Both the position numbers and the translations under genes were made by a program. A DNA stretch of 64,000 nt from Wohlfahrtiimonas populi (GTDB taxonomy: Bacteria; Pseudomonadota; Gammaproteobacteria; Cardiobacteriales; Wohlfahrtiimonadaceae), in contig NZ_MVDN01000003.1 in NCBI RefSeq assembly GCF_002006795.1, forward strand, positions 113,957-177,956, given 5' to 3'. Shown piece after piece: positions 21,751 through 36,189 of the stretch. The notes beneath the pieces are model-generated. The model was given only the letters and a program-made list of their open reading frames with translations. It made no database searches and was not told the DNA's origin. Position 1 is the stretch's first letter; each line of letters opens with the position of its first letter.

Positions 21751-22029
21751 TCAAAATTCATCATAAGTTTTTTCAAACTGTCACATAAAATAGTTCAACT
21801 TCTCTTATCTCATGGAAAATATTATAAATATACCTACTTATTTTATAGCTAATACCACGGAGCATCCCATGAAATTAAAATCATTATTTATGACAGGCAT
21901 TTTATCATCAGCAATGTTTGTATATTCTTAAGATCAAATTTAAAACCCTAAATAACGTTTTATTAAAACTTTTGCACTATAGGATTCATCACAAAACCTT
22001 TATTATAAGCTCTGCAAAGCTGCTTACAA

Positions 22030-23448
22030 CTAGGATATTTCTCTTCCTTGACCCTGCTCTTGGCTTCTACTTTGGGATAGGCTTTGTGTTCTTGCAGTTT
22101 CTTCTAATGCTACTAAATTTTGCTTAGAAAAATCTTCAATCACACCAACTTCTTCAAGTTTTCCTTTATCTCTACAGAAAACCTTTAATCCATCATCCTC
22201 ATTAAATTTTCCTAGCAGGTCATTAGTGCTATTAGCATAATGATCAAAACAACCTACTTTGCAAAAATCCATTGCATATGATTTGCCTGCAATCAACATT
22301 ACAGGATTGCCATTCGCATTATTCTCTATGCTGATATCCGGCCTATTAGCGGATAGATTAATTTGGTTTTCATTATTAGATGATTGACTTTGTTCTAATT
22401 CTTGTTGTTTAGCTTCTTCAAACTGCTTTTTAAAGTTTTCAGTTTCACTGAATAGGTATTGAACACTATCTATCTTATCTTGGTGTTGATCTATTTTATC
22501 TTCAAGGTAATTTTGCCAATCCTCTGGTAGCTTACCTTTGATCTGTTCTCCATTTTCAGAAAAAAATGTGATTAATTCCGTTTCTACTGTTCTTACATTT
22601 TCTAAAACAGATTCTCTATTAATTTGGATATCTCTTCTAAATTCGTTCACTAAAGTTAAATTTTCACCTGTTAGATTTGCAGCAAGTGGATCATTCAATA
22701 TAGATAGGTGCTTATTGTCATTCAGATCATTGACGAAATTACTCATGCTATGAACGCCGCCATAAGTAAAAGCCGCTACACCTAGCCACATTTCATTATT
22801 ATCGACATCTTTATCGCCATACTTTAAGGTTTTTAGTAGGATTAATTCATCTTCGCGCGCATATAAAATTTCTTTACCTATGTGATGGTTAGCAATATTC
22901 ACAACATCATTTGCCATCATGTGATTAGTGATATCACCATGGTATTCTCTAGGGACAGTTTTATATTCACCTTGTAAATTTTGATATTTCAAACCCACAG
23001 AGCCATAACCATTGAAAGTCATGGCTTTTAGCCCATATTCATAAGCACAAACCTCAGCAAGTGCACCACCTAAAGAGTGACCAGTGATGCTGACTTGAGG
23101 GATTGGTACATTGTTATCTTTAGCATAATCTTTAGAATATTGAAGAGCTCTTTCAGTTAATGCTAGAGCATGAGGAATCTGGAGATTAACATCTTGGGTT
23201 GCCATCAAATAATCCACTACCCCATCTTCCATAGAAGCTGTACCACGATGAGCTACAAAAATTTCACCAGTATTAATATCCTGATATATAGTGCCTTGGT
23301 AATCAGTCTTTTCGTCAGAATATTGTTCTATAACTTTAAATTTACCCAATTGAACTTGGTAAGTTTCATCAGTGTCTATATATTTTGGATCGATATCATT
23401 GTAAGCATCATCGGCTAAATTTGCATATTTTTGAGGAAAGTCTGACAT
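22030..23448 (-). CDS. class-3 (fungal-type) lipase-domain protein without signal peptide; candidate secreted phospholipase/lipase effector
   Basis: 472 aa with the GHSLGGALAE nucleophile elbow inside a lipase_3-like N-terminal half. There is no Sec or Tat signal. The C-terminal ~200 aa are low-complexity (S/Q/N/E-rich). Confidence 0.65.
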   Translation of the reverse strand: MSDFPQKYANLADDAYNDIDPKYIDTDETYQVQLGKFKVIEQYSDEKTDYQGTIYQDINTGEIFVAHRGTASMEDGVVDYLMATQDVNLQIPHALALTERALQYSKDYAKDNNVPIPQVSITGHSLGGALAEVCAYEYGLKAMTFNGYGSVGLKYQNLQGEYKTVPREYHGDITNHMMANDVVNIANHHIGKEILYAREDELILLKTLKYGDKDVDNNEMWLGVAAFTYGGVHSMSNFVNDLNDNKHLSILNDPLAANLTGENLTLVNEFRRDIQINRESVLENVRTVETELITFFSENGEQIKGKLPEDWQNYLEDKIDQHQDKIDSVQYLFSETENFKKQFEEAKQQELEQSQSSNNENQINLSANRPDISIENNANGNPVMLIAGKSYAMDFCKVGCFDHYANSTNDLLGKFNEDDGLKVFCRDKGKLEEVGVIEDFSKQNLVALEETARTQSLSQSRSQEQGQGREIS

Positions 23449-24065
23449 CTCTAAATCTCCTCTAACTCAATATGAAATGTGAAATATTCTTCAGGCTGAA
23501 AAGCATCCTTTTTTATGCCACTACTTAAATAATTAGATAAATTTTTATTTTCTGGATATCTCTCTTTTAAATGACTTTTTTCAAAATATTTTTTATCTAA
23601 ATCACTGTCTGAAATGGAAGCACTGAATCGGGTTTCTTCTTTTGCGCCTGTGGCTTTAAAAACGATTGAAGCATTGTTAAACCCCCAATGGCAAACACCC
23701 CCACCATAGCCATAATCCTCATCCAACATACCATCTACATAAAATTCCCCTTGATACTCAGTATCTGATATTTTCTGAAATTCAAGTGGAATTCTGTGTC
23801 GTGGCTGTAAAGAAGCCCCAGCAAAGCCCTTGAGTTGGTACTGACAATTAGTCGTTTGATAAATAGCATACGTATTTAAACTTTCGAGTTTTCCTGGTGC
23901 ATTTTCAATTTTGATGGTGACTCGATACCCTTTTTGAGGATTGGGGTTTTCCTGAAAACGTTTTTCTTCTTCTTTTTGGGTTGAAGTATATCTTTGATTG
24001 TTATTCATAAATCCTTTTCCATAGCTCACGCTGATTAAAAATACAATTGGCAAAATCCATAGTTT
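23421..24065. repeat. tandem direct repeat copy A (~645 bp) spanning the lipase start and paralog-1 gene
   Basis: This segment re-occurs at +765 bp (24186..24830). Identity is high at both ends and diverged in the middle. Confidence 0.7.
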
Positions 24066-24074
24066 GGTCCACAT
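23451..24074 (-). CDS. secreted protein, paralog 1 (putative lipase immunity protein)
   Basis: 207 aa with the signal peptide MWTKLWILPIVFLISVSYG. Its stop is 2 bp from the lipase start. It is a paralog of ORF 24216..24842 (N-terminal ~75 aa nearly identical, then ~60-70% identity). Confidence 0.4.
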   Translation of the reverse strand: MWTKLWILPIVFLISVSYGKGFMNNNQRYTSTQKEEEKRFQENPNPQKGYRVTIKIENAPGKLESLNTYAIYQTTNCQYQLKGFAGASLQPRHRIPLEFQKISDTEYQGEFYVDGMLDEDYGYGGGVCHWGFNNASIVFKATGAKEETRFSASISDSDLDKKYFEKSHLKERYPENKNLSNYLSSGIKKDAFQPEEYFTFHIELEEI

Positions 24075-24150
24075 ATTGATTATCCTTTTGGGTAACTGCT
24101 TAAGTTATTTTATTTCTAAATACTTTTTCTTAATTCAATGATTGATTCAA

Positions 24151-24213
24151 TTAAGAAAAAATATTATGAATATTGTTTGCTAAGTTAGTATATTTTTGAG
24201 GAAAGTCTGACAT
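24151..24213 (-). pseudogene. orphan 5' fragment of a second lipase copy (MSDFPQKYTNLANNIHNIFS*), remnant of effector gene duplication
   Basis: The reverse strand reads ATGTCAGACTTTCCTCAAAAATAT..., nearly identical to the first 8 codons of the intact lipase (MSDFPQKY). It then diverges and terminates after 20 codons. Confidence 0.55.
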
Positions 24214-24830
24214 CTCTAAATCTCCTCTAATTCAATATAAAATGTGAAATATTCTTCAGGTTTAAATCTTTCTTTTTTAAGCCCTCCTTGGCTTAAGTAT
24301 CTTGGGAGTTTTTCATCTATAGGGTAATTCTCTTTCAAATGGTTAAACTCAAGTTGTTTTTTATTCAGATCGCTATCTGAAATAGATGCGCTAAATCTTG
24401 TATCATCTACATTTTCTGTTGCGGAAAATACAATTGAAACATTGTTAAAACCCCAATGGCAAATACCTCCGCCATAGCCATAATCTTCATCCAACATACC
24501 ATCTACATAAAATTCCCCTTGGTACTCAGTGTCTGATATTTTTTTAAATTCAAGTGGAATTCTATGATAGGGTTGTAAAGAAGCCCCAGCAAAACCTTTG
24601 AGTTGGTACTGACAATTTCGTGTTTGATAGTTAGCATAGGTGTACAGCTTCTCAAATTCACCCGGTGCATTTTCAATTTTGATGGTAACTCGGTACCCTT
24701 TTTGGGGATTGGGGTTTTCCTGAAAACGCTTTTCTTCTTCTTTTTGGGTTGAAGTATATCTTTGATTGTTATTCATAAATCCTTTTCCATAGCTCACGCT
24801 GATTAAAAATGCAATTGGCAAAATCCATAG
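24186..24830. repeat. tandem direct repeat copy B (~645 bp) spanning the orphan lipase 5' fragment and paralog-2 gene
   Basis: Same as copy A. For example, TATTTTTGAGGAAAGTCTGACATCTCTAAATCTCCTCTAA is shared at both locations. Confidence 0.7.
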
Positions 24831-24842
24831 TTTTGGCTTCAT
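24216..24842 (-). CDS. secreted protein, paralog 2 (putative lipase immunity protein)
   Basis: Signal peptide MKPKLWILPIAFLISVSYG (start taken at an internal Met). It is paralogous to 23451..24074, including the conserved Cys/Trp block GYGGG(V/I)CHWGFNN. Confidence 0.4.
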   Translation of the reverse strand: MKPKLWILPIAFLISVSYGKGFMNNNQRYTSTQKEEEKRFQENPNPQKGYRVTIKIENAPGEFEKLYTYANYQTRNCQYQLKGFAGASLQPYHRIPLEFKKISDTEYQGEFYVDGMLDEDYGYGGGICHWGFNNVSIVFSATENVDDTRFSASISDSDLNKKQLEFNHLKENYPIDEKLPRYLSQGGLKKERFKPEEYFTFYIELEEI

Positions 24843-24918
24843 TTTCCATCCTTTATGTATAACTTTGTAAAAAATCATATTTATAAATATGATTTTTTAC
24901 TATTTCTATAATCGATAC

Positions 24919-25440
24919 TTACAATTCATTGATAGCTTTGAATCTTTCAACCCTTTGCTTCTCAAGGGATTCGAACCATTCTGTAGATGGCTTTTTATAA
25001 ATTCGTTCAGAAAATACATAATACGTAAGATGTCCATTTTTTACCATAAAACGATACATTGCATATTCTGTAATATTTCCACTCGTTATTAATTTTTCTA
25101 AATAGTATTCATTCTTTTTTTCATCTTTAGTCGCGGCTATTGTTGTTGACAATATAGGTTCCTTAGTATTTTGAGCTAGGTAGCTTAGATACCCATCCAT
25201 TTTATCCACAGTGATCGTTTTTTGTTCCCAGTATGAAACCATGCTTTTGAAACTATTTAAGTCCTCTCCTTTGGGTAAAAACTCCACGACATTTACTTTT
25301 GCATCACTATTTTCATATGCTTGAGAATATTCAACACCTGCAAAATCAATCTTGTCAATTGTCTTATTCTCAGCAACTGAGATGTATACTAATTCTAAAA
25401 AAATTAAAAATATCAATACTATTTTTTTTATATCTTTCAT
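24919..25440 (-). CDS. hypothetical secreted protein (signal peptide; unrelated to the paralog pair)
   Basis: MKDIKKIVLIFLIFLELVYISVA is a signal peptide. The gene lies 36 bp downstream of the giant ATPase gene on the same strand. Confidence 0.35.
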   Translation of the reverse strand: MKDIKKIVLIFLIFLELVYISVAENKTIDKIDFAGVEYSQAYENSDAKVNVVEFLPKGEDLNSFKSMVSYWEQKTITVDKMDGYLSYLAQNTKEPILSTTIAATKDEKKNEYYLEKLITSGNITEYAMYRFMVKNGHLTYYVFSERIYKKPSTEWFESLEKQRVERFKAINEL

Positions 25441-25524
25441 GTTTATTATTTCCATAAAATTTAAAAACTGAGTGGATAAGATGACCACTCAGCAGGGTTA
25501 ACTTAATTTGTACCCGAGCACAAT

Positions 25525-28500
25525 TTACTCAGTCACAATTCTATTTTCTTTAATCAATCGTATTTCTCGGCGGCCGCCCAAAGCTTCAACGCCTTTCACA
25601 AGTGCATCTAAGCGATGAACAATATACTGTGGATTATTCATCTGCATTGTATCTTTCAAGCTATTCACGCCTTTAACCAATTCACCCATTTGTTTCGCCA
25701 CATAACGATTCACATTTTGCAAATCATCGCTTTCTTTAAATTCATCGAGCTTTTCACTCAATTTCGCGATTTGTGCCGCAATATGTAATGAAGCCTGAGC
25801 ATTGGTCTTGCTATTGTTACTGGAAACTAAAACGCCTGATAATTTAGTCACTTCATCTGCAATTTTCAAACTCGCATTCGTTGCATCTTGCTGATCGCCC
25901 ATTAATCGAAGGCTTTCAGTTAATGACACTAAGTGATTCGCAAAATTCAGATCTTTCACGCTCATCGCCAATTCTGCTAATTGAGATACGATCTTCATAC
26001 CTGTATCAGTTTCATCGCCACCCATGGATTTATTACGAGCAAAATCTCGTTTGATTTGTGCCCAGCGCTCTTTTTCTACATCTGTTAATGTGCCACGAAT
26101 TTCATTGAGTTTTAATAAATTCTCTTCAGCACCCGATGTTAATAGCTGAGCTTCACCAATGTAGTGATCATTAATTACTTGGTTAATTTCTGCCTCATTC
26201 ATTACTGCAGAAATTTTCTCCACCATTTTATTCATATTACGGTAGCTGCCTTGCAACTTAAATGGCGGTTCTGTGCGATATTTATCAGATTGTGCTGCAC
26301 TCACAATGTATTGCTGATTCACCTTGAAAACGATTTCGCGAATGATCATCAAATGCTTCAATACAGTTGTGATTTCTGCAATCTCCGCACCACTATAATC
26401 ATAACTCAATGCACTTGAATTAATCGGCTTGCCTTCTGCATGATCCATGAATTGATATAAATCTTTCAAATCACGAAGTGCCAAAGGTGACAATACTGCG
26501 TTCGATGTTAATGAGTTTTCGATATAACTTGAGATGAACGCATCCTGCATCCCACCCAAAACTTCACCTAAGTTATAAATATCCGCACGGTTTGCCAACA
26601 TATCAGGAATTTTAAAGACTTCACCCGATTCTGTATAAGGATTCCCTGCCATCACAACGCAGAATTTCTTCCCACGCATGTCATAAGTTTTTGTTTTGCC
26701 ATTCCAAACACCTTCAATTCTTCGTGTACCATCACACAATGAAATGAACTTTTGTAGGAATTCAGGATTTGTATGTTGAATATCATCAATATACAACATC
26801 ACATTGTTGCCCATTTCAAAAGCTAAGTTAGCTTTTTCTAGCTCCTGCCTTGCTGTAGCATTCGGTGCTTGATCAGGATCTAATGATAAAACATCATGCC
26901 CCAAAGCTGGACCATTCACTTTCATGAAAATTAAGCCCAAGCGATTCGCCACATATTCCATCAATGTGGTTTTACCATAACCTGGCGGAGAAATGAGGAG
27001 CAATAAACCCATTAAGTCTGTACGGCGATTTTCGCCCACTGTACCCATTTGCTTCGCTAAGTTATCACCAATGATTGTGAAATAAACATCATTGATCAAT
27101 TTATTGCGCACGAATGAGCTAAGCGGCTTTGCCTTAAATTCATCTAAACGTAATTTCTCACGCTGCTCTGCCAAAATTCCTTGACGAAGCTCTAAATATT
27201 TTCTAAATTCAGGCACAACATATAAACGATGGCGGCGTAATCGCTTAAAAAACTCATCCAAGTTAATCATCATTTTACCTTGAGAAACTCTAGAATGTTC
27301 GCCCAATAAATCTGTGATCTCAATGTCTAATTCAACTTCACTGAAACGCTGAACTACTTTACCTTCATTACCCAACATCAATAACATAATCGCCTCAGGA
27401 ATGTAACGAACCTTATTCTCAAATTCAGGTAATGAGCATAAGCCTTTCAACCAATTCTCAATCAACTGCCAACGTGCATCAAATCGCCCATTCATACCTA
27501 ACTGTGAATGGTTAAAGTTGTGCCACATATGTGCATCTTCAAGTTTCTTTTGCAATCCCGACGCTAGCTCTCGGCCATAACGGCTACAGAAGAATTCTTG
27601 TGGCGTTCTTGCTAGAACATAAATCAAGTATTCTGCTGCATGCTTAATGTTCAATGGTTCGTGCTTGATTGGATATTCCGCATAGAACATTGATAATGTT
27701 ACTTCAATCTCTTCTTGAAGATCATCTAAGCCATCTTTATGCCCAAACAAAGTATAAATATCCATACTCGTTTTAGCGCGATCAATCCAAGAGCTTGCCA
27801 CATCATCCTCTTGCTCAAAGTTCCAATACAACATGGCTAAGCTTCTCGCCATTGCGCTGAATCTTAATAGATCAGCACTTTCATGCAATGGGACAAGCTG
27901 CTTTAAGATCTGTACTGCATCGTGATCATGAATCCCTTTTTCATAACCATCACGATAGCGACTTGCTGCAAAATCACGCACCAATTTATCTAAATTTTCT
28001 TGAATGGAAATCGCTGCATGCAAAATGCCTGTGGTTAAGCCATCTTGATTATTTCTAGCCGCCACAATGATGCTATTGGCAAGATATTCACCACGATAAA
28101 CTTCTGACGATTCTGATTCCATCGTCATGTTCCAGAATGGCTGATATTGCGCTAGGATTTCGTTATTGATGCGCTCTTGATAATCTGTGCCCGTTAATTG
28201 TAAATAGAGATAATTTTCTTTCGGTAAAATCGTCAAATCAGGTTCTTGTGTATTTACGCTGAAGCGATGTTTACCCAAGCGAATAACATTGCCGCCTGAT
28301 TCAAAAATCTCTGATTTATCTCGGAGTGATCTGACTGCTTGATCTTTTGCACTTTTGAAGCGCGATTCAATGTCATCCGCTTTAACATTATCATGCAATT
28401 CACGGAGTTTTTCTGTGATGTCACGAATTTTCACAGCTAAAGCATCTGTTACGAAAAACGCATTCAATTCGGTTGCATCATTGAGCCGTGCCGTTCTTCT

Positions 28501-30879
28501 TGGAATGCTTTCTAAAATGCGATCTGCTGCAGTTTGTAAAGATTGTGCCCTACGCTGGCGTTCTTCTAATAGTTGTTGCTTATGTCCTTCGAAACTCTCT
28601 AAAACTTCATCACGCTTTGCAATAATGTCAGCTAAAAACTCATCACTTTCGCTGAATTGATTTTCAAGCTCTTCCAATTGCACCAATAAACGTGATAATT
28701 CATCATCGCAACGCTCTGGTGCCACTGCTAAATTTAAAGCATTGGCAACACTTTGGCTAAAAAGCTTAAATTGTGCACCAAATTGCGCCACCATTTCTGT
28801 GGAAGATAAAGACTTACGCTTTTGAATGATGCGCGCCTTCATCTGGTTTAATTTAGCATAAACCTCAGCAATGGATTCAACGATCTTAGTTTGCAATGTC
28901 ACATCATCAAACTTCAATGTCGCCATCAAATTGGACAACATATCTAAATCACCCGACATATCATCAGATTCTGTCAGTAATGTTTGTAATTGTGCTGTGT
29001 TGATTGCTTGTTGCGTTGCAGTTTCTGTCGTTTGAATTTTGTCTAAAAATGGTTGCAATGAGCGATCATCTGCCAAAAATTCCGCAGTTGCGCGAGAAAT
29101 TTGTGCTTGGCGCTCTTTCATTTGTGTTTCCATTGCATCAATCTCTTTCAGATCAATGTAACGATAACCACGCAATGTGACTAAGCGGCCAATTTGCATA
29201 TTGATGGAATGTAGCGCTTCTACAAATTCATCAGTTTCCTGCCAGCTATCTGCATACAATTGCGATAACAATGTTTTTTGCATTGTCATCGCCTCACGCA
29301 TTGCAGCATCAGATTGACGACGAATGGCTTCTACTTTCTCATATTCATCTAAAACCAATTCGCTGGTTTGAGAAATCGAACGCAAAATACCTGCAAATGG
29401 GAAATTCTTTTCATCATTGAGCCAGAAATAGCGATCAAATAACTGTTTCGTTGTTTCACTCAATAAGCTATAACGATCTGATGAAACACTCTGATCACCA
29501 ATTTCACGCACAACATGATATAAATCGGAAATTCCGCGCACTAAATCAGGATTACCAATTCGACCTAATAAACTATTATTATTGGGTTGTTTTGCTGAAT
29601 ATTCATCACTGAAAAATGGTGTTTGCCAAATCTGCATAGGATGAACGCGTGTTGCTTCATGATCTGCGGTTTCAAAAACAACCATTCTGCCATCTTCAAA
29701 CACAGCATAACCGAGCGCTAAAATAGGATTCCCTAGCGTTCGTTCAATCATATTATAGTTGAATAATGCTAAACGCCCTTCTGCACCATCATAGAAAATG
29801 TATAAAACATCTTCACCATTCGGCGATCTACGAATACGGCGAAAACGCATGCCACTCATATTATGCTCATACGTTTTAAAATCGCCACTTTGAAGATAAT
29901 AACCACCAGGGAAAATAATCCCGTGATCTTCTGGCAATTGAATACATGCAAAGCCAATCGCATCAATGCGTTGAACTTTTTGCGTCATTGTATTGTAAAC
30001 GAGATAGCGCCAAGTATCTTCGCGATATGGCAATACTTTTAGTAAGATCAATGATCCGACTTTTGCATACTCTATTTTGGCATCATTGATGGATTGATTT
30101 TTATCTAGAACTTCTTCACGATAAATTCCTAAGCCATCATTCGTATTATTTTCACATTTAACCGTTAAATCCCCGCCAATTGTTTCCACAAAAACGGTAT
30201 CTAAAATATTAATGTGAGGAAAACGCCCATTGACGATATTTTCACGATCTGTCGTTATCCATTCAAAATCATAAGCTGGCGGCAATGAAATATCACGCTC
30301 ACCACGATTATCAATGTATTCGATTTTCTGTTTATCACTAGAAATTGACCAACGGAAAACACGAATATCGCTTAATCGCTCACCCATTTGGAAGCTTGCC
30401 AACAGCTTGCCATCACGCTCAACTAATTGTAATAGCTGTGCATTTTTATAATAAGTGTAAAGCTCATTAAAATCTTGAACGAAACGATCTATGTTTAAAA
30501 ATGTACCTTCTAACGGCACAGTTTCAACATCATAACTACCATCATGCTCAACTAAACGGTAGAGAGAGAAAACATCTTCAACGTGCGTTTCTTTCTTTAA
30601 ACCTAAGAAAACGTTATAACCAAACAGTAACCAATCACCAAAGCGCACAATATCGCGTGCAATACAGTTGTTTTCGGTACGAATACGGATTCGCCCAATC
30701 ACTTCCATATCACTTTTGCCAAACTCTTCTAAACGCTTGGAATTCAGCCCATCAATATTCTCTTGAAGTTCTGTTCCCAATGCATTTAGTCGACGGCTTA
30801 ATATTTCATAAGCGCCACCTTCTGCAACTGCGCTGTCTAACACTTCTTGGTTTTGATCTTTCTGTTCGATTTCTGACAT
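25525..30879 (-). CDS. giant (~1784-aa) coiled-coil protein with C-terminal MoxR/AAA_5-type AAA+ ATPase domain; flotillin-associated; function unknown
   Basis: Walker A LLLISPPGYGKTTL sits at ~aa 1300-1313 (nt ~26980). Walker B is VMLYIDDIQH, sensor-1 is VVMAGNPYTE (ATMNP-like) and an arginine finger lies in DMLANRADIY (LLDRF-like). Long predicted coiled coils flank the ATPase. There is no signal peptide or TM segment. I prefer the ATG start at 30879, since the ORF-track start at 30903 is TTG. Confidence 0.6.
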   Translation of the reverse strand: MSEIEQKDQNQEVLDSAVAEGGAYEILSRRLNALGTELQENIDGLNSKRLEEFGKSDMEVIGRIRIRTENNCIARDIVRFGDWLLFGYNVFLGLKKETHVEDVFSLYRLVEHDGSYDVETVPLEGTFLNIDRFVQDFNELYTYYKNAQLLQLVERDGKLLASFQMGERLSDIRVFRWSISSDKQKIEYIDNRGERDISLPPAYDFEWITTDRENIVNGRFPHINILDTVFVETIGGDLTVKCENNTNDGLGIYREEVLDKNQSINDAKIEYAKVGSLILLKVLPYREDTWRYLVYNTMTQKVQRIDAIGFACIQLPEDHGIIFPGGYYLQSGDFKTYEHNMSGMRFRRIRRSPNGEDVLYIFYDGAEGRLALFNYNMIERTLGNPILALGYAVFEDGRMVVFETADHEATRVHPMQIWQTPFFSDEYSAKQPNNNSLLGRIGNPDLVRGISDLYHVVREIGDQSVSSDRYSLLSETTKQLFDRYFWLNDEKNFPFAGILRSISQTSELVLDEYEKVEAIRRQSDAAMREAMTMQKTLLSQLYADSWQETDEFVEALHSINMQIGRLVTLRGYRYIDLKEIDAMETQMKERQAQISRATAEFLADDRSLQPFLDKIQTTETATQQAINTAQLQTLLTESDDMSGDLDMLSNLMATLKFDDVTLQTKIVESIAEVYAKLNQMKARIIQKRKSLSSTEMVAQFGAQFKLFSQSVANALNLAVAPERCDDELSRLLVQLEELENQFSESDEFLADIIAKRDEVLESFEGHKQQLLEERQRRAQSLQTAADRILESIPRRTARLNDATELNAFFVTDALAVKIRDITEKLRELHDNVKADDIESRFKSAKDQAVRSLRDKSEIFESGGNVIRLGKHRFSVNTQEPDLTILPKENYLYLQLTGTDYQERINNEILAQYQPFWNMTMESESSEVYRGEYLANSIIVAARNNQDGLTTGILHAAISIQENLDKLVRDFAASRYRDGYEKGIHDHDAVQILKQLVPLHESADLLRFSAMARSLAMLYWNFEQEDDVASSWIDRAKTSMDIYTLFGHKDGLDDLQEEIEVTLSMFYAEYPIKHEPLNIKHAAEYLIYVLARTPQEFFCSRYGRELASGLQKKLEDAHMWHNFNHSQLGMNGRFDARWQLIENWLKGLCSLPEFENKVRYIPEAIMLLMLGNEGKVVQRFSEVELDIEITDLLGEHSRVSQGKMMINLDEFFKRLRRHRLYVVPEFRKYLELRQGILAEQREKLRLDEFKAKPLSSFVRNKLINDVYFTIIGDNLAKQMGTVGENRRTDLMGLLLLISPPGYGKTTLMEYVANRLGLIFMKVNGPALGHDVLSLDPDQAPNATARQELEKANLAFEMGNNVMLYIDDIQHTNPEFLQKFISLCDGTRRIEGVWNGKTKTYDMRGKKFCVVMAGNPYTESGEVFKIPDMLANRADIYNLGEVLGGMQDAFISSYIENSLTSNAVLSPLALRDLKDLYQFMDHAEGKPINSSALSYDYSGAEIAEITTVLKHLMIIREIVFKVNQQYIVSAAQSDKYRTEPPFKLQGSYRNMNKMVEKISAVMNEAEINQVINDHYIGEAQLLTSGAEENLLKLNEIRGTLTDVEKERWAQIKRDFARNKSMGGDETDTGMKIVSQLAELAMSVKDLNFANHLVSLTESLRLMGDQQDATNASLKIADEVTKLSGVLVSSNNSKTNAQASLHIAAQIAKLSEKLDEFKESDDLQNVNRYVAKQMGELVKGVNSLKDTMQMNNPQYIVHRLDALVKGVEALGGRREIRLIKENRIVTE

Positions 30880-30967
30880 ATTCACAACTTTATTTAAAAT
30901 CAATCAACTAAACATAGCGAGCTAATCTCGCTATGTTCTGTTTATTTTCAAAGAAATGCATCAATGA

Positions 30968-33034
30968 TTATGGTTCAGCCTGATCATCATTGCGTTCTTT
31001 GTTGCCTTGATAACCTAAAAACTGCGTTGCCAATGCATTCAAATCAACATTGCTTAAAGGATTACTTTGCGTTGCATTAGTGCCACCATTTTGTGCTGGT
31101 GCTTGAATACGGCTCAATACAGTTTGCAGTGCTGTTTGTAAAATTGGGCTTTGGTTCACAGAGCCTTCAATTGCTTTACCTACGCTAATTGCTTTAGAGA
31201 AGCTTTCGAAGAACTTGTCATTGCCGCCCACAATTTCCATCTTCGCATTACTCAATGCAGCGCCTAACACATCTGCTTGTTCGCGAGCGATTTCTTGATT
31301 TGCACTGATAGAAGCCATTGCTTGTTCGAAGCCTTTTTCCAATGCTAAACGGAACTCTTCGTGCGCACGTGAATCTTCCGTCATTGTGCCCATAGCATGG
31401 AATTTCTCCACCAAACCTTCTGCTTCTGCACGAAGTTTCTCACGAATAATAGATGCTTCCACCAAGCCTTGTTTTTCAACGGCTGTTGCTTTAGCTTCTA
31501 CAACTTTAGCTTCTGCTAAACCTTTATCTTGAATCGCTTTAGCTTCTGCTGAGCCTTTCTCTTGAATACCTTTAGCTTCTGCAATGCGCATTTCACCTGC
31601 AACAAAGGCTTGAACCATACCTTCTTTCTCTTCAGCTTCTGCTTTCGCTAACATGACACGCGCTTCTGCTAAACCGATTGCAGCTTGCTCTGCTTCTGTA
31701 CCTTCCGCCATACGTTTTTGAGCTTCAGCATCTTTCGTTGCTGCTTCCAAGTTCGCTTGGGCAATCGTGCTGATTTCAACTGCACGATGTTTTGCAGCTG
31801 TTTCATCCGCTTCTGCTTGCTTCACTTGCTTCACTAACTCTTCTTCAGCTTTGGCTTGTGCTGCCAAGATTTTCGTTTGTTTCTCACGTTCCGCAGCAGA
31901 TATTTCACGAACTTCTTTAATGCGCTCTTCTTCAATCGCCACTGTTTTTTCAACAGAAATACGTTCACGAATCACATCAGCAATGATGCGTTTTTCTTCT
32001 TCAACTGCTTTATCTTTTTCAATCGTTTGCAATTCGATTTCGCGTTCACGTGCAACCACTTCCAATTCACGCGCACGAGTAACACGTTCTTCTTCGATTG
32101 CAACTGCACGCATACGATTTTGCTGTGCAACTTCAACTTCACGCTGGCGATTTTCTTCACGCACTTCAATTTCTTGCTGTGAAATGATGCGAGCTTGTTC
32201 TGCTTTTAAGCGCTCTTCTTCTTGAACTTTTAATGTTTCTGCTAATTCACGTGCACGAATCGTTTCAATTTCACGTTTTTGGCGTGCTTCAGCATCTGCT
32301 TGTTGGCGTTCTAATTCTAATTTAGCTTCAAATGTTTCAGTATCTTTCTTTTTCAAAGCCAATTCTAAATCACGTTCACGTTTGTTTGTTTCATCTTTAT
32401 GAACGGCTGTGATTGCTGTGATTTTATTGATACCTTCCGCATCGAAGATATTGTTTGGATCTAAGTGACCAATTGGCGTTTGCTCCAAATAGTCAATTGC
32501 AACGTCTTCCAATGCATAACCATTTAAGTCTTTACCGATTACATCCACAATGCGCTCACGGAAGTTTAGACGATCTTCAAACAGTTTTGCTAAATCAAAT
32601 TGCTTACCAACAGTTTTCAATGCTTCAGAGAATTTTGCACTGAATAATTCACTCACAGCATGGTGATCCGATGCACGATCTACACCAATAGATTTTGCAA
32701 CTTTCAATACATCTTCTGTGGTTTCATTCACACGAATATAGAATGCAACAGCAATATCAGCACGCAAGTTATCTTTACAGATCAAACCTTCTTTACCACG
32801 GCGATCCACCAATAATGTCAATAAAGAGATCTTCATGAACTCTTTCTTATGAATGACTGGTAATACCAATTTACCTGTAAAGAATACTTTTGGTTTGCTC
32901 GTCGTATCATTCAGAATCAAAGCTGTGCCTTGCGGAACTTTCACATAGAATGCTTTGATGATTGCAAATAGACCAAAGATAACAACCAGTGAAACACCGA
33001 TCACCGACAATACTAAAACAACAATTTCTGGCAT
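30968..33034 (-). CDS. flotillin-family SPFH/band-7 protein (YqiK-like) with extended E/A/R-rich coiled-coil region
   Basis: 688 aa with an N-terminal TM helix followed by an SPFH domain. A ~300-aa charged coiled coil (EEERLKAEQAR...) and a C-terminal flotillin tail follow. Confidence 0.8.
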   Translation of the reverse strand: MPEIVVLVLSVIGVSLVVIFGLFAIIKAFYVKVPQGTALILNDTTSKPKVFFTGKLVLPVIHKKEFMKISLLTLLVDRRGKEGLICKDNLRADIAVAFYIRVNETTEDVLKVAKSIGVDRASDHHAVSELFSAKFSEALKTVGKQFDLAKLFEDRLNFRERIVDVIGKDLNGYALEDVAIDYLEQTPIGHLDPNNIFDAEGINKITAITAVHKDETNKRERDLELALKKKDTETFEAKLELERQQADAEARQKREIETIRARELAETLKVQEEERLKAEQARIISQQEIEVREENRQREVEVAQQNRMRAVAIEEERVTRARELEVVAREREIELQTIEKDKAVEEEKRIIADVIRERISVEKTVAIEEERIKEVREISAAEREKQTKILAAQAKAEEELVKQVKQAEADETAAKHRAVEISTIAQANLEAATKDAEAQKRMAEGTEAEQAAIGLAEARVMLAKAEAEEKEGMVQAFVAGEMRIAEAKGIQEKGSAEAKAIQDKGLAEAKVVEAKATAVEKQGLVEASIIREKLRAEAEGLVEKFHAMGTMTEDSRAHEEFRLALEKGFEQAMASISANQEIAREQADVLGAALSNAKMEIVGGNDKFFESFSKAISVGKAIEGSVNQSPILQTALQTVLSRIQAPAQNGGTNATQSNPLSNVDLNALATQFLGYQGNKERNDDQAEP

Positions 33035-33119
33035 ACGACTTTCCTATCTTATAATTAATCTAAAAATAACTCTCGAACCTTATATTTCTTGTACTGCTAA
33101 TTTTGATGCTTAAATTTGC

Positions 33120-33755
33120 CTAAAAATATTTCTTTTTGGGAATCACTTCATAATGATGATTGGCAGAATGATATTTAATAATAATCGCTTCACTACCGCG
33201 CGTTAATTGATTATTTTCATTGAGACAACGCACTTGTAGAATCATACCTGCACCACCATCCTCATAAGTCGCTTCACCTTTTTCAGCATTCACAATGCTA
33301 CTGCGAACAATGACAACTTCGCCTAAGATATCTTTATGTGTCACTGCTTTATTTAATTTGGATAACCATTTGTTAAATGGTCGAAAAAATATGGATGTTG
33401 CAACTAAACCAACAACACCGCTCGCCAATACATTGGCTAAACCTACGCCATAATATAAAAGTGCAACATCTTTCATTGGCATCTGTAACATGCGGAAAAT
33501 GAGATAGCTTGCGAGCCATGCAAATAAAGCAACAAATGTGGCAACCACAGTGAAAGGAATTTCATGTAATTTAAATTTTAATAATATGCCACCCAAAGCA
33601 TTGAGCGAACCAACATCACCTTCTGGTGAAATATCTAAGCTATCCAATTGAAAAATATCAATGGCGCCAATCAGCCAGAAAATAATGCACAACAATAATA
33701 AAGTTGTATAGATCACAACTGGAAATGCAAAAATTGTCTCTAAAAATAGCATCAT
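33120..33755 (-). CDS. NfeD/YqiJ-like inner-membrane protein (partner of flotillin)
   Basis: 211 aa with 3-4 N-terminal TM helices and a C-terminal soluble beta-rich (OB-like) segment (GEVVIVRSSIVNAEKGEATYEDGGAGMILQVR). It lies directly upstream of the flotillin gene, as in E. coli yqiJ-yqiK. Confidence 0.5.
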   Translation of the reverse strand: MMLFLETIFAFPVVIYTTLLLLCIIFWLIGAIDIFQLDSLDISPEGDVGSLNALGGILLKFKLHEIPFTVVATFVALFAWLASYLIFRMLQMPMKDVALLYYGVGLANVLASGVVGLVATSIFFRPFNKWLSKLNKAVTHKDILGEVVIVRSSIVNAEKGEATYEDGGAGMILQVRCLNENNQLTRGSEAIIIKYHSANHHYEVIPKKKYF

Positions 33756-33969
33756 ATTGCCACTTTCCTTCTTTGGTTTTTAACTATTTATACTATTCAT
33801 AATTCTTTCGGCAACGAAATATAGCACATTATAAAAAATTTTAATTAAATGACCTATTTTATTTGCAATTACCTAATTATTATCAACATCACTACAATGA
33901 TTATCTCAATCAATCCTCTCTATTAAACAATGTATAAATTGTATAATAAACACTGTTCAAATATCAAAT

Positions 33970-33998
33970 AAAAAATAGCGCCCGAAAGCGCTATTTAG
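33970..33998. terminator. rho-independent terminator for the minus-strand RidA gene (ATAGCGC-ccgaaa-GCGCTAT flanked by A/T tracts)
   Basis: 7-bp GC-rich stem. A T-run follows on the minus strand (TTTTTATTTG). Confidence 0.5.
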
Positions 33999-34026
33999 AA
34001 TTCTGTATAATTAACCCTAAGGTAAA

Positions 34027-34704: not shown

Positions 34705-36189
34705 TTATTGTAAATCTTGTGATGAACCATCGTCACCTGAAGGGAAATCGAGAGATTTCAGTACTTCCAAGCGTTTAATCCCATCTACATTAATCACAAG
34801 TCGAACCAATTCCGTCGCAATGTTATGATTATTATTCAAACGAATGCGACGAATCATATAAACATGATAAATTTTCTCGCCCAATACTGGCGTTTCATCT
34901 TCTTCTAAAAATGGCAACTCTTCAAAGGCAATATCAATATAACGAAGATAATCAGAAATATTAAATCTCGTAATATCCGCAATTGGAAAGCGCGTTTTCT
35001 CAAATAAATTTGGCTGATTATTCAACTGAACTTCTTTCTTGTAAAAAAGAATATCTTCATCACGATCATTATTCGTGAAAAAATCCTCATTGGTTGTTTG
35101 ATGCACAGCTTTCACATCATCTGGCAATGCGCTGTGGGAAATGAATCGGAATGATTCTTTACAAATCCCGATAGGTTTTTTCACACCTTCTTTATAAATC
35201 AAAAGCTTTCGATCAGGCAACCAACGCTGAAACCATAGTTGCATCCTACGTTTACTGATATCTTTAAAGCGATCTCTAAAAATGTAAGCAAGCACCATTG
35301 CAATGAATACTTTGATACTGATGTCAGCATATTGCCCACCACGAATATTGAGCATCAAAAATAGCGTAATACTCATAGATATTGCTGCAATCGCAGCATA
35401 AATCGTGTGCAATAAAAGCGGTGCACCTTTACGATGATTGATATCTAAAAATAGATAACGATTAATGTATCTACGCAAAGAACTCCAGCGATGCAATACT
35501 TTTTCATTGCTCTCACCTGGTTTTGCAATACTTTCAGGATATTTTTCCTCACGATAATTAATCTCTTCTCGCCATGCATTGCTGATCCCTGCACGGCAAG
35601 GAATTGCACGCTCTGTGATTAATTTTCGTAAATAAAAAGTCGTCACCCAAGAGATATATTCATCACAATGCTCATAAGCCTTGGACACAATTTTGCCCTC
35701 GATTGCTCGGCAAACTGCTTCTAACTCACGATAAGCTTGGATCGTTTTTTCAATATCCACCAACAGCTGCTGAACATTCTCTTCTGTTTTTTGATTGGGT
35801 GCTTTTAATAGTGATTTAACAGCCAAACGAATGCTTCGTTTATAAGTTAACGCTGCACGCTTCAATGCGTTTTCATAGCTCTCAATTTCTGGTGTATTCA
35901 CCAACCAATCTTTTAATTCATTGGATAGTTTTTCCAGCAAACCTTTTTTCTTATAAAAATATTTGAGCTTATGGGTTGCTGGACTTAAACGAACATAATT
36001 TTTTAATGATTTTTGGAACTCTTTTGCTGAGTAGGATTGCGGGTTAATTTGCAATGCAACTGGCAAAAAGAAATAGGTTTCTACTTGATACTTAATGTTC
36101 TTTGCTTTGGCATGATCAAAAGAGACTCTTTGTTTGATCTCAAACTGACGGTGGCCATGGATTTTCAATGATTCTTTAATCATGTGCAC
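34705..36189 (-). CDS. hypothetical membrane protein, co-operonic with Na/Pi cotransporter
   Basis: 494 aa with two central TM helices (LLLHTIYAAIAAISMSITLFLML..., VFIAMVLAYIF). No family was recognised. It lies 14 bp downstream of 36204..38156. Confidence 0.3.
   Translation of the reverse strand: MHMIKESLKIHGHRQFEIKQRVSFDHAKAKNIKYQVETYFFLPVALQINPQSYSAKEFQKSLKNYVRLSPATHKLKYFYKKKGLLEKLSNELKDWLVNTPEIESYENALKRAALTYKRSIRLAVKSLLKAPNQKTEENVQQLLVDIEKTIQAYRELEAVCRAIEGKIVSKAYEHCDEYISWVTTFYLRKLITERAIPCRAGISNAWREEINYREEKYPESIAKPGESNEKVLHRWSSLRRYINRYLFLDINHRKGAPLLLHTIYAAIAAISMSITLFLMLNIRGGQYADISIKVFIAMVLAYIFRDRFKDISKRRMQLWFQRWLPDRKLLIYKEGVKKPIGICKESFRFISHSALPDDVKAVHQTTNEDFFTNNDRDEDILFYKKEVQLNNQPNLFEKTRFPIADITRFNISDYLRYIDIAFEELPFLEEDETPVLGEKIYHVYMIRRIRLNNNHNIATELVRLVINVDGIKRLEVLKSLDFPSGDDGSSQDLQ

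What the first reader, a model, noticed from the sequence alone, without database searches (positions are those of the whole stretch)
25525..33755. Flotillin/NfeD pair co-transcribed with a ~1784-aa coiled-coil MoxR-type AAA+ ATPase: candidate uncharacterised membrane-microdomain-associated system
Three co-directional minus-strand genes with short gaps (33755 to 33120 NfeD/YqiJ-like; 33034 to 30968 YqiK-like flotillin; 30879 to 25525 giant protein). The first two reproduce the widespread SPFH-NfeD operon. The third is an unusually large soluble protein whose only recognisable domain is a C-terminal AAA_5/MoxR-like ATPase. Its motifs are Walker A GYGKTT at nt ~26980, Walker B IDD, sensor-1 MAGNP and an Arg finger NRAD. 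About 1300 aa of unassigned N-terminal sequence and extensive coiled coils precede it. I know of no described function for a flotillin-plus-giant-ATPase module. By analogy with other membrane-associated ATPase modules, it could be an abortive-infection or anti-phage system, an envelope-stress or remodelling machine, or a scaffold for the downstream lipase cassette. The domain calls are my pattern recognition from the sequence. The functional ideas are inference.
Basis: partly seen in the sequence, partly recalled or inferred. Interest (0 to 1): 0.85.

Follow-up and report, generated by a model that had tools for sequence, protein, structure and literature searches.

The report
Known flotillin–YqiJ–giant AAA+ ATPase operon
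The three genes are real and tightly linked, but they are another copy of an already described, widespread bacterial operon (the bacC-bacD-bacE part of the Pseudomonas aeruginosa "bac"/PspA envelope-stress cluster) whose molecular mechanism is still unknown.

Summary
Three minus-strand genes, with gaps of 85 and 88 nt, encode a 211-aa three-TM YqiJ-like protein, a 688-aa YqiK-like flotillin and a 1784-aa soluble AAA+ ATPase.

The module is not undescribed. The genes are orthologues of P. aeruginosa PA3730, PA3729 and PA3728 (bacC, bacD, bacE; 35%, 62% and 60% identity, same order). They match the "abbreviated operon" (band-7/flotillin + YqiJ/YuaF + novel AAA+ ATPase) described by Ravi et al. 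2024.

Linkage is not fortuitous. All 78 related loci with enough upstream DNA carry the flotillin gene directly upstream of the ATPase gene, and all 75 with enough DNA carry the YqiJ-like gene. The trio also occurs in Deinococcus and Streptomyces.

The downstream lipase cassette is a strain-specific, low-GC insertion and is not part of the system. No PADLOC defence model matches.

My best reading is a PspA-type envelope-stress module in which the ATPase remodels a flotillin/YqiJ membrane scaffold. That mechanism is inferred, not shown.

The parts
33973..33996 (-). Terminator-like hairpin plus T-run ending the upstream RidA-family gene; marks the upstream boundary of the unit
   Evidence: 10-bp stem, 4 GC pairs, tail TTTATTTGAT; sequence read
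33938..33967 (-). Sigma-70-like promoter candidate (TTGATA-18-TACAAT) about 180 nt upstream of the first gene. Consensus match only.
   Evidence: No sigma-54-type TGGCAC-N5-TTGC site lies in 33756-34000. This differs from the RpoN site proposed for P. aeruginosa bacA (PMC10948618).
33120..33755 (-). 211-aa YqiJ-like (short NfeD-like) inner-membrane protein: three hydrophobic segments plus a C-terminal soluble domain. Orthologue of P. aeruginosa PA3730/BacC.
   Evidence: TM 1-40, 63-92, 97-127. hhalign of the family profile against E. coli YqiJ gives 91%, E 1e-6. 35% identity to P. aeruginosa PA3730. Conserved upstream of the flotillin gene in 75 of 75 testable loci. No Pfam or NCBIfam hit.
30968..33034 (-). 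688-aa YqiK-like flotillin: N-terminal TM, SPFH region, long Ala/Glu-rich helical region, flotillin-type C-terminus. Orthologue of PA3729/BacD/PaFlo3.
   Evidence: BLASTP against E. coli YqiK E 7e-46. Family profile against human flotillin-1 (9bq2) E 0.0012. 62% identity to the P. aeruginosa 688-aa protein. Homologues are named 'flotillin family protein' or 'YqiK'. TM at 1-35. The AF2 model was poor, pLDDT 53.
30911..30937 (-). Stable intergenic hairpin (11-12 bp stem) between the flotillin and ATPase genes; possible attenuator or mRNA stabiliser
   Evidence: MFE -21.5 kcal/mol for the 88-nt gap, z = -3.6. Kept with stem changes in L002, L003 and L004. 47 of 70 related loci have an unusually stable gap. 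Function is inferred.
25525..30879 (-). 1784-aa soluble AAA+ ATPase, annotated elsewhere as 'DNA repair ATPase'. Orthologue of PA3728/BacE.
   Evidence: 60% identity to the P. aeruginosa protein P0114, whose locus is DUF2170-PspA-213aa-688aa-ATPase-PLD.
29425..30771 (-). DUF3686 domain (aa 37-485 of the 1784-aa protein), beta-rich. Ravi et al. call it beta-propeller repeats.
   Evidence: Pfam PF12458 E 1.5e-198, full-length match. The fold was not tested here. No PDB sequence relative.
28810..29061 (-). DUF7902 (aa 607-690) within the helical, coiled-coil-like region of about aa 490-860
   Evidence: Pfam PF25472 E 3.8e-20. Composition is 47-61% E/K/R/Q/A/L in aa 500-800. No dedicated coiled-coil predictor was run.
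27160..28242 (-). All-helical domain (about aa 880-1240) preceding the AAA+ core; no recognisable relative
   Evidence: AF2 model with pLDDT about 85-96 across this stretch. No PDB hit attributable to it.
26620..27003 (-). AAA+ core: Walker A SPPGYGKTT (nt 26965-26982), Walker B LYIDD, a beta-hairpin before sensor 1, sensor-1 GNP, Arg in NRAD

Best explanation
This is the Wohlfahrtiimonas copy of a conserved three-gene operon, the equivalent of P. aeruginosa bacC-bacD-bacE. It is the 'abbreviated' form of the PspA-associated envelope-stress operon that Ravi et al. 2024 defined by comparative genomics.

The flotillin (one TM, an SPFH domain and a long helical region) and the three-TM YqiJ/NfeD-like protein most likely form an oligomeric scaffold on the cytoplasmic face of the inner membrane. 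Solved SPFH-NfeD and flotillin complexes do this.

The soluble giant ATPase has a catalytically intact, MoxR/midasin-like AAA+ core. It probably docks on this scaffold through its DUF3686 and helical regions. It would then use ATP hydrolysis to assemble, disassemble or remodel the scaffold, and PspA polymers in genomes where a PspA gene is linked, during membrane stress.

Shown: homology, invariant catalytic motifs and strict gene linkage. From the literature on the P. aeruginosa orthologues: co-transcription, co-regulation, and induction by osmotic shock and phage infection.

Inferred: physical contact between the proteins, the substrate of the ATPase, and the physiological trigger in this organism.
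For: - Orthology and synteny with PA3730, PA3729 and PA3728.
- The flotillin gene lies directly upstream of the ATPase gene in 78 of 78 loci with enough upstream DNA. The YqiJ-like gene is present in 75 of 75. These loci span Gamma- and Betaproteobacteria and Myxococcota.
- The same trio occurs in Deinococcus, in Streptomyces and on plasmid pQBR103.
- PspA is within 8 kb upstream in 30 loci and DUF2170/YjfI in 26.
- Membrane-linked extras recur: rhomboid proteases directly downstream in four checked lineages, and PLD in P. aeruginosa.
- Walker A, Walker B, sensor-1 and Arg residues are invariant.
- The operon is described in PMC11237479.
- RT-PCR shows the bacABCDEF operon, and all its products rise 6-13-fold in a bacA deletion mutant (PMC10948618).
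- PA3728-PA3732 transcripts rise on phage infection (PMC12041424).
- PA3731 accumulates on osmotic shock (PMC2587700).
Against: - No experiment anywhere shows that the ATPase touches flotillin or PspA.
- Deleting the P. aeruginosa flotillin (PaFlo3) caused only about 20% less biofilm and no other phenotype (PMC13086221).
- No PspA or DUF2170 gene lies in this 64-kb window. The rest of the genome could not be searched.
- The promoter here looks sigma-70-like, not sigma-54-like, so regulation may differ from the P. aeruginosa model.
Confidence: 0.5

Rival explanations
1. Anti-phage or abortive-infection system. The membrane scaffold senses infection and the ATPase, with a PLD-type effector in some genomes, kills or arrests the cell.
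For: PA3728-PA3732 transcripts are induced by two virulent phages (PMC12041424). A PLD/HKD gene follows the ATPase gene in P. aeruginosa. The module occurs on large plasmids. Its distribution among Pseudomonas species is patchy and was read as horizontal transfer (PMC13086221). In Wohlfahrtiimonas it sits next to a variable insertion slot.
Against: None of the three proteins matches a PADLOC model; the only hit is a P-loop-only IetA match at E 0.007. Sequence conservation is very high, 60% identity over about 1700 aa between Wohlfahrtiimonas and Pseudomonas, which is unlike arms-race proteins. According to PMC13086221 the locus and its synteny are broadly conserved across P. aeruginosa genomes. 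The recurrent partners are PspA, YjfI, polyamine genes and rhomboid, not nucleases or other defence genes. Most loci have no effector-like gene. Induction by phage is also what a phage-shock or envelope-stress response does.
Confidence: 0.12
2. A DNA-repair ATPase, as the database name says, with the membrane genes as unrelated neighbours.
For: Homologues are named 'DNA repair ATPase', and the Pfam DUF3686 title reads 'ATPase involved in DNA repair'. Weak RuvB-type hits cover the P-loop segment (Pfam RuvB_N E 6e-4; NCBIfam RuvB 20 bits). RuvB appears among the weak Foldseek hits.
Confidence: 0.03
3. A MoxR-type maturation chaperone. The ATPase does not remodel the flotillin scaffold itself. 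Instead it uses the scaffold as a platform to insert or extract some other membrane client, such as a transporter, a protease or a respiratory complex, as RavA, CbbQ and NorQ do for their clients.
For: The closest structural neighbours are the MoxR proteins CbbQ and NorQ, plus midasin. SPFH cages are known to enclose client proteins such as FtsH in HflK/C (established knowledge). Variable downstream partners (rhomboid, PLD, DUF2721) could be clients.
Against: There is no VWA/MIDAS partner gene in or next to the operon (Pfam scans; locus annotations). Such a partner is the hallmark of MoxR systems. No single client gene is conserved. The only invariant partners are flotillin and YqiJ.
Confidence: 0.2
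4. A scaffold or secretion aid for the downstream lipase cassette.
For: Only adjacency: a 36-nt gap and the same strand.
Against: The cassette (21938-25524) is missing from three related Wohlfahrtiimonas genomes. The slot there holds a 217-aa TM protein, or an MFS transporter plus a 329-aa gene I did not annotate, or nothing. None of the 80 other loci has homologues of the cassette genes. Its GC is 0.33 against 0.389 for the operon.
Confidence: 0.02

Closest known systems
P. aeruginosa bacABCDEF (PA3732-PA3727) 'biofilm-associated cluster', specifically bacC, bacD (PaFlo3) and bacE
   Same: Same three proteins in the same order: 35%, 62% and 60% identity, and the flotillin is 688 aa in both. 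In P. aeruginosa the genes are co-transcribed and co-regulated (PMC10948618).
   Different: The window lacks bacA (DUF2170/YjfI), bacB (PspA) and bacF (PLD). No sigma-54 site lies upstream. A sigma-70-like promoter candidate is present instead.
The 'abbreviated' band-7/flotillin + YqiJ/YuaF + novel AAA+ ATPase operon of Ravi et al. 2024 (mSystems, PMC11237479)
   Same: [quoted passage not shown] PspA is not linked.
   Different: Nothing substantive. This is simply an instance in Wohlfahrtiimonas. The published work is computational, so function is equally open.
E. coli yqiJ-yqiK and other SPFH-NfeD operons (QmcA-YbbJ, HflK/C, B. subtilis YuaF-FloT)
   Same: The membrane pair is homologous to YqiJ and YqiK and has the same gene order.
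   Different: E. coli has no ATPase gene after yqiK. The window proteins belong to a diverged subfamily that escapes the Pfam Band_7, Flot, YqiJ and NfeD models.
MoxR-class AAA+ ATPases (CbbQ, NorQ, RavA) and midasin
   Different: The protein is five to six times longer. There is no VWA/MIDAS partner. The Walker A segment looks like classical AAA or RuvB. The AAA+ module is an isolated family: only 786 representatives at E 1e-3 or better among 1.84 billion proteins, and among the best 150 the ones that look complete are 1500-2036 aa long.
ESCRT-III/Vps4 (and PspA with associated AAA+ ATPases)
   Same: A functional analogy only: a membrane-bound polymer plus a dedicated AAA+ remodeller. PspA, an ESCRT-III homologue, is encoded next to the trio in about 40% of loci.

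Membership tests
YqiJ-flotillin-AAA+ operon (BacC-BacD-BacE type; Ravi et al. 2024) | Membrane protein with TM + band-7/SPFH + coiled coil + flotillin C-terminus | tested here: met
   TM at 1-35. BLASTP against YqiK E 7e-46 across the SPFH and helical regions; YqiK carries Pfam Band_7 + Flot. Profile against flotillin-1 E 0.0012.
YqiJ-flotillin-AAA+ operon (BacC-BacD-BacE type; Ravi et al. 2024) | 3-TM protein of the YqiJ/YuaF type encoded next to the flotillin gene | tested here: met
   Three hydrophobic segments. hhalign against E. coli YqiJ 91%, E 1e-6. 35% identity to PA3730.
YqiJ-flotillin-AAA+ operon (BacC-BacD-BacE type; Ravi et al. 2024) | Giant AAA+ ATPase carrying the DUF3686 N-terminal region | tested here: met
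   PF12458 E 1.5e-198, PF25472 E 4e-20, and AAA and AAA_5 both above cut-off. 60% identity to PA3728.
YqiJ-flotillin-AAA+ operon (BacC-BacD-BacE type; Ravi et al. 2024) | The N-terminal region is a beta-propeller | not tested
There is no PDB sequence relative.
YqiJ-flotillin-AAA+ operon (BacC-BacD-BacE type; Ravi et al. 2024) | Conserved collinear order YqiJ-like, then flotillin, then ATPase | tested here: met
   78 of 78 loci (flotillin) and 75 of 75 loci (YqiJ-like) with enough upstream DNA. Also Deinococcus, Streptomyces and pQBR103.
Full PspA-linked form (bacABCDEF) | CesT/Tir-like DUF2170 (YjfI) plus PspA (YjfJ-type) dyad upstream | tested here: not met
   No tblastn hit to P. aeruginosa PspA or DUF2170 anywhere in the 64-kb window. 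A RidA-family gene followed by a terminator-like hairpin lies upstream instead. The window therefore holds the abbreviated form.
SPFH-NfeD operon | NfeD-type C-terminal OB-fold domain in the partner protein | tested here: inconclusive
   The hhalign alignment to YqiJ runs through YqiJ residues 50-191, which overlaps its Pfam YqiJ_OB domain at 139-198. No Pfam NfeD or YqiJ_OB model hits the window protein directly.
MoxR AAA+ family | AAA+ core of the MoxR/AAA_5 structural type | tested here: inconclusive
MoxR AAA+ family | Partner protein with a VWA/MIDAS domain encoded alongside | tested here: not met
   There is no VWA domain in any neighbouring protein of the window. None appears in the P. 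aeruginosa, Deinococcus, Streptomyces or pQBR103 loci.
Known anti-phage defence systems (PADLOC-DB 2.0) | Match of any component to a defence-system protein model | tested here: not met
   The only hit is a 29-residue P-loop match to IetA at E 0.007. The flotillin and YqiJ-like proteins have none.
RuvB / DNA-repair AAA+ ATPases | Full-length match to RuvB-type models, or a DNA-binding domain | tested here: not met

The most novel reading that the evidence does not exclude
The trio is a self-sufficient, ATP-driven membrane-repair machine. A midasin/MoxR-like giant AAA+ motor mechanically assembles or strips a flotillin/YqiJ cage. This would be a flotillin-based counterpart of ESCRT-III/Vps4 that works without PspA. 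It would give bacterial flotillins their first dedicated energy-consuming remodeller.
Probability: 0.3. Interest if true: 0.7.

Novelty: new member of a known kind. Interest (0 to 1): 0.3.

Why it matters
The locus itself adds little, because the operon type is already catalogued and partly studied in P. aeruginosa. The underlying question is still worthwhile. A ~1700-aa AAA+ ATPase is kept at 45-60% identity across phyla and is always welded to a flotillin/NfeD pair, yet it has no known substrate or mechanism, and its database name ('DNA repair ATPase') is probably misleading. Working out what it does would clarify how bacterial flotillin scaffolds are regulated and how they connect to the PspA envelope-stress response.

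Tried and rejected
- Pfam, NCBIfam and PADLOC scans of the 688-aa and 211-aa proteins gave nothing, even at E 10. A single-sequence PDB search also gave nothing. Homology had to be shown through E. coli YqiK and YqiJ.
- AF2 of the flotillin with a shallow alignment (23 sequences, 67-95% identity) gave pLDDT 53, with the SPFH region below 50. The model was unusable and was not fold-searched.
- Full-text searches for DUF3686, PF12458 and 'DNA repair ATPase' + flotillin found no paper.
- A sigma-54 promoter like that proposed for bacA was looked for upstream of the first gene and not found.
- The lipase-cassette link was rejected.
- The idea of a PLD gene as a regular sixth gene was rejected. PLD homology at E below 1e-5 was seen only in L001. 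An HKD motif in the first downstream ORF was seen only in L001 and L009, and the L009 ORF has no Pfam hit.
Full report
**Observation.**
The three minus-strand ORFs exist as described: 33755-33120 (211 aa), 33034-30968 (688 aa) and 30879-25525 (1784 aa from the ATG). The last ORF is open back to a TTG at 30903, but close homologues are 1784 aa. The gaps are 85 and 88 nt. K1303, D1365, D1366, N1413 and R1431 are invariant in 28 homologues that share 45-71% identity with the window protein, so the ATPase is very likely active. Hydropathy gives no TM segment in the giant protein, one N-terminal TM in the 688-aa protein and three in the 211-aa protein.

**Identity of the two membrane proteins.**
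No Pfam, NCBIfam or PADLOC model hits either protein, even at E 10, and a PDB sequence search finds nothing. The 688-aa protein nevertheless aligns with E. coli YqiK at E 7e-46 (29% identity over 438 aa from the TM through the SPFH region). YqiK itself carries Pfam Band_7 and Flot. A profile of 29 family members reaches human flotillin-1 (9bq2) at E 0.0012. Databases name close homologues 'flotillin family protein' or 'YqiK'. A 25-member profile of the 211-aa family matches E. coli YqiJ (hhalign 91%, E 1e-6). These proteins belong to a diverged subfamily that current Pfam models miss. My AF2 model of the flotillin was too poor to use (pLDDT 53).

**The giant protein.**
It is not 1300 aa of unassigned sequence followed by an ATPase. 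Pfam DUF3686 matches aa 45-493 of the 1792-aa translation end to end at E 1.5e-198, and DUF7902 matches at E 4e-20. Pfam AAA and AAA_5 both score just above threshold. More than 5000 homologues exist, nearly all named 'DNA repair ATPase'. Identity is 73% in Gilliamella and other Orbaceae, 65% in Proteus, Providencia and Morganella, and 60% in P. aeruginosa.

The protein is not a MoxR family member, because it has no VWA partner and is five to six times the usual size. Its AAA+ module also forms an isolated family. Only 786 representatives among 1.84 billion proteins reach E 1e-3, and among the best 150 the ones that look complete are 1500-2036 aa long.

**Gene linkage.**
The window comes from a Wohlfahrtiimonas larvae-like genome: the ATPase is 98% identical to a W. 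larvae MAG protein and 95% to that of strain JCM 18424. I examined 81 loci carrying an ATPase homologue at 46-98% identity, from Gamma- and Betaproteobacteria, Myxococcota and others. Every locus with enough upstream DNA has the flotillin gene immediately upstream on the same strand (78 of 78) and the YqiJ-like gene before it (75 of 75). The few exceptions are contigs that end within about 1 kb of the ATPase gene. The same trio is annotated on replicons of Deinococcus and Streptomyces and on Pseudomonas plasmid pQBR103. The juxtaposition is therefore an operon conserved across phyla.

**It is already described.**
The P. aeruginosa homologue lies in the order DUF2170 - PspA - 213 aa - 688 aa - ATPase - PLD. 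This is PA3732-PA3727, the 'bac' cluster. Macé et al. 2008 (PMC2587700) tied PA3731, a PspA-like protein, to biofilm formation, swarming, rhamnolipid production, virulence and induction by osmotic shock. Wallart et al. 2024 (PMC10948618) showed by RT-PCR that six genes, bacA to bacF, form one operon, and that all its products rise 6-13-fold in a bacA deletion mutant. In that operon bacC is the YqiJ-like gene, bacD the flotillin, bacE the giant ATPase and bacF the PLD.

Ravi et al. 2024 (PMC11237479) describe the operon explicitly. [quoted passage not shown] The window is such an abbreviated operon, since no PspA or DUF2170 gene lies anywhere in the 64 kb.

Two further reports bear on function. 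PA3728-PA3732 transcripts rise on phage infection (PMC12041424). Deleting the flotillin (PaFlo3 = PA14_16180) lowers biofilm by only about 20% and changes nothing else that was tested (PMC13086221).

**Boundaries and surroundings.**
Upstream, the RidA-family gene ends in a terminator-like hairpin (33996-33973). A sigma-70-like promoter candidate follows at 33967-33938, and I found no sigma-54 site there. Downstream, the 'lipase cassette' (21938-25524) is not part of the system. Homology to three other Wohlfahrtiimonas genomes stops exactly at the ATPase stop codon and resumes near 21930. In between, those genomes carry a 217-aa TM protein, or an MFS transporter plus a 329-aa gene I did not annotate, or nothing. 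None of the other 80 loci has the cassette genes, and its GC is 0.33 against 0.389 for the operon. Genes downstream of the ATPase are variable in general. Rhomboid proteases recur in several lineages (Pfam E about 1e-20 to 1e-23 in four checked loci), and pQBR103 has an annotated rhomboid gene inside its PspA-flotillin cluster. PLD is rare.

**Mechanism.**
The best-supported reading is a PspA-type envelope-stress and membrane-organisation module. Flotillin and the YqiJ/NfeD-like protein would build an oligomeric scaffold on the inner membrane. I infer this from solved SPFH-NfeD and flotillin assemblies (established knowledge). The giant ATPase would be recruited through its non-catalytic regions and would remodel that scaffold, or linked PspA polymers, using ATP.

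The supporting points are the invariant linkage, the intact catalytic residues, the frequent PspA/YjfI and rhomboid neighbours, and the regulation data from P. aeruginosa. None of the physical steps has been shown. I give about 0.95 to the identification and about 0.35 to the specific remodelling mechanism.

There are four rivals:
- A MoxR-style chaperone acting on another client inside the scaffold (0.2).
- An anti-phage system (0.12). It has no PADLOC match, and the very high sequence conservation and the envelope-stress partners argue against it.
- A true DNA-repair role (0.03). The only support is the database name and a P-loop-level resemblance to RuvB.
- A role in serving the lipase cassette, which is refuted.

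**Verdict.**
The useful residue is that a very large, highly conserved ATPase with a probably misleading name still lacks any mechanism. An additional small observation is a conserved stable hairpin between the flotillin and ATPase genes. The window's gap scores z -3.6, and 47 of 70 loci have unusually stable gaps. The hairpin may set the scaffold-to-motor ratio.

Noticed in passing
window 21938-25524 (minus strand): A strain-specific low-GC (0.33) four-gene insertion sits directly after the ATPase gene. It encodes a 189-aa protein with an N-terminal hydrophobic segment, two paralogous 220-aa and 207-aa proteins (82% identical), and a 472-aa lipase-like protein with a GHSLGG motif (weak Pfam Lipase_3 and Mbeg1-like hits, weak NCBIfam SA1320-family hit). 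The layout resembles a lipase toxin with duplicated immunity genes. It is absent from three related Wohlfahrtiimonas genomes, where the same slot holds other cargo.
   Followed up: partly
window 30911-30937; also L002, L003, L004 and 47 of 70 related loci: A stable hairpin (11-12 bp stem) lies in the 88-nt gap between the flotillin and ATPase genes. It is kept with stem changes in other Wohlfahrtiimonas genomes, and in L003 a T-run follows it. Most related loci also have an unusually stable gap. It could be an attenuator or a transcript stabiliser.
   Followed up: partly
L006, L007, L022, L073 (first gene after the ATPase); L085 4460-5014: Rhomboid-family intramembrane protease genes recur next to the operon in unrelated lineages (Pfam Rhomboid E 1e-20 to 1e-23). 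One is annotated within the pQBR103 PspA-flotillin cluster. This is another membrane-linked partner.
   Followed up: partly
L085 (P. fluorescens SBW25 plasmid pQBR103, 84437-97641 in the record): A single plasmid-borne cluster joins both PspA operon classes of Ravi et al. Its order is YjfI, PspA, rhomboid, DUF2491, DUF350, DUF1190, glutathionylspermidine synthase, a hypothetical protein of about 217 aa in the YqiJ position, an SPFH protein, and the 'DNA repair ATPase'.
   Followed up: no
window 34705-36189 (minus strand): A 494-aa protein with TM-like stretches has no Pfam or NCBIfam family. It is conserved (87-96% identity) in the two W. larvae relatives and lies between a Na/Pi cotransporter gene and the RidA-family gene.
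   Followed up: no
whole flotillin subfamily (P0121-P0240): None of the 120 closest flotillin homologues carries a precomputed Pfam domain. This widespread YqiK-like subfamily is invisible to the current Band_7 and Flot models, which may cause it to be missed in SPFH surveys.
   Followed up: no
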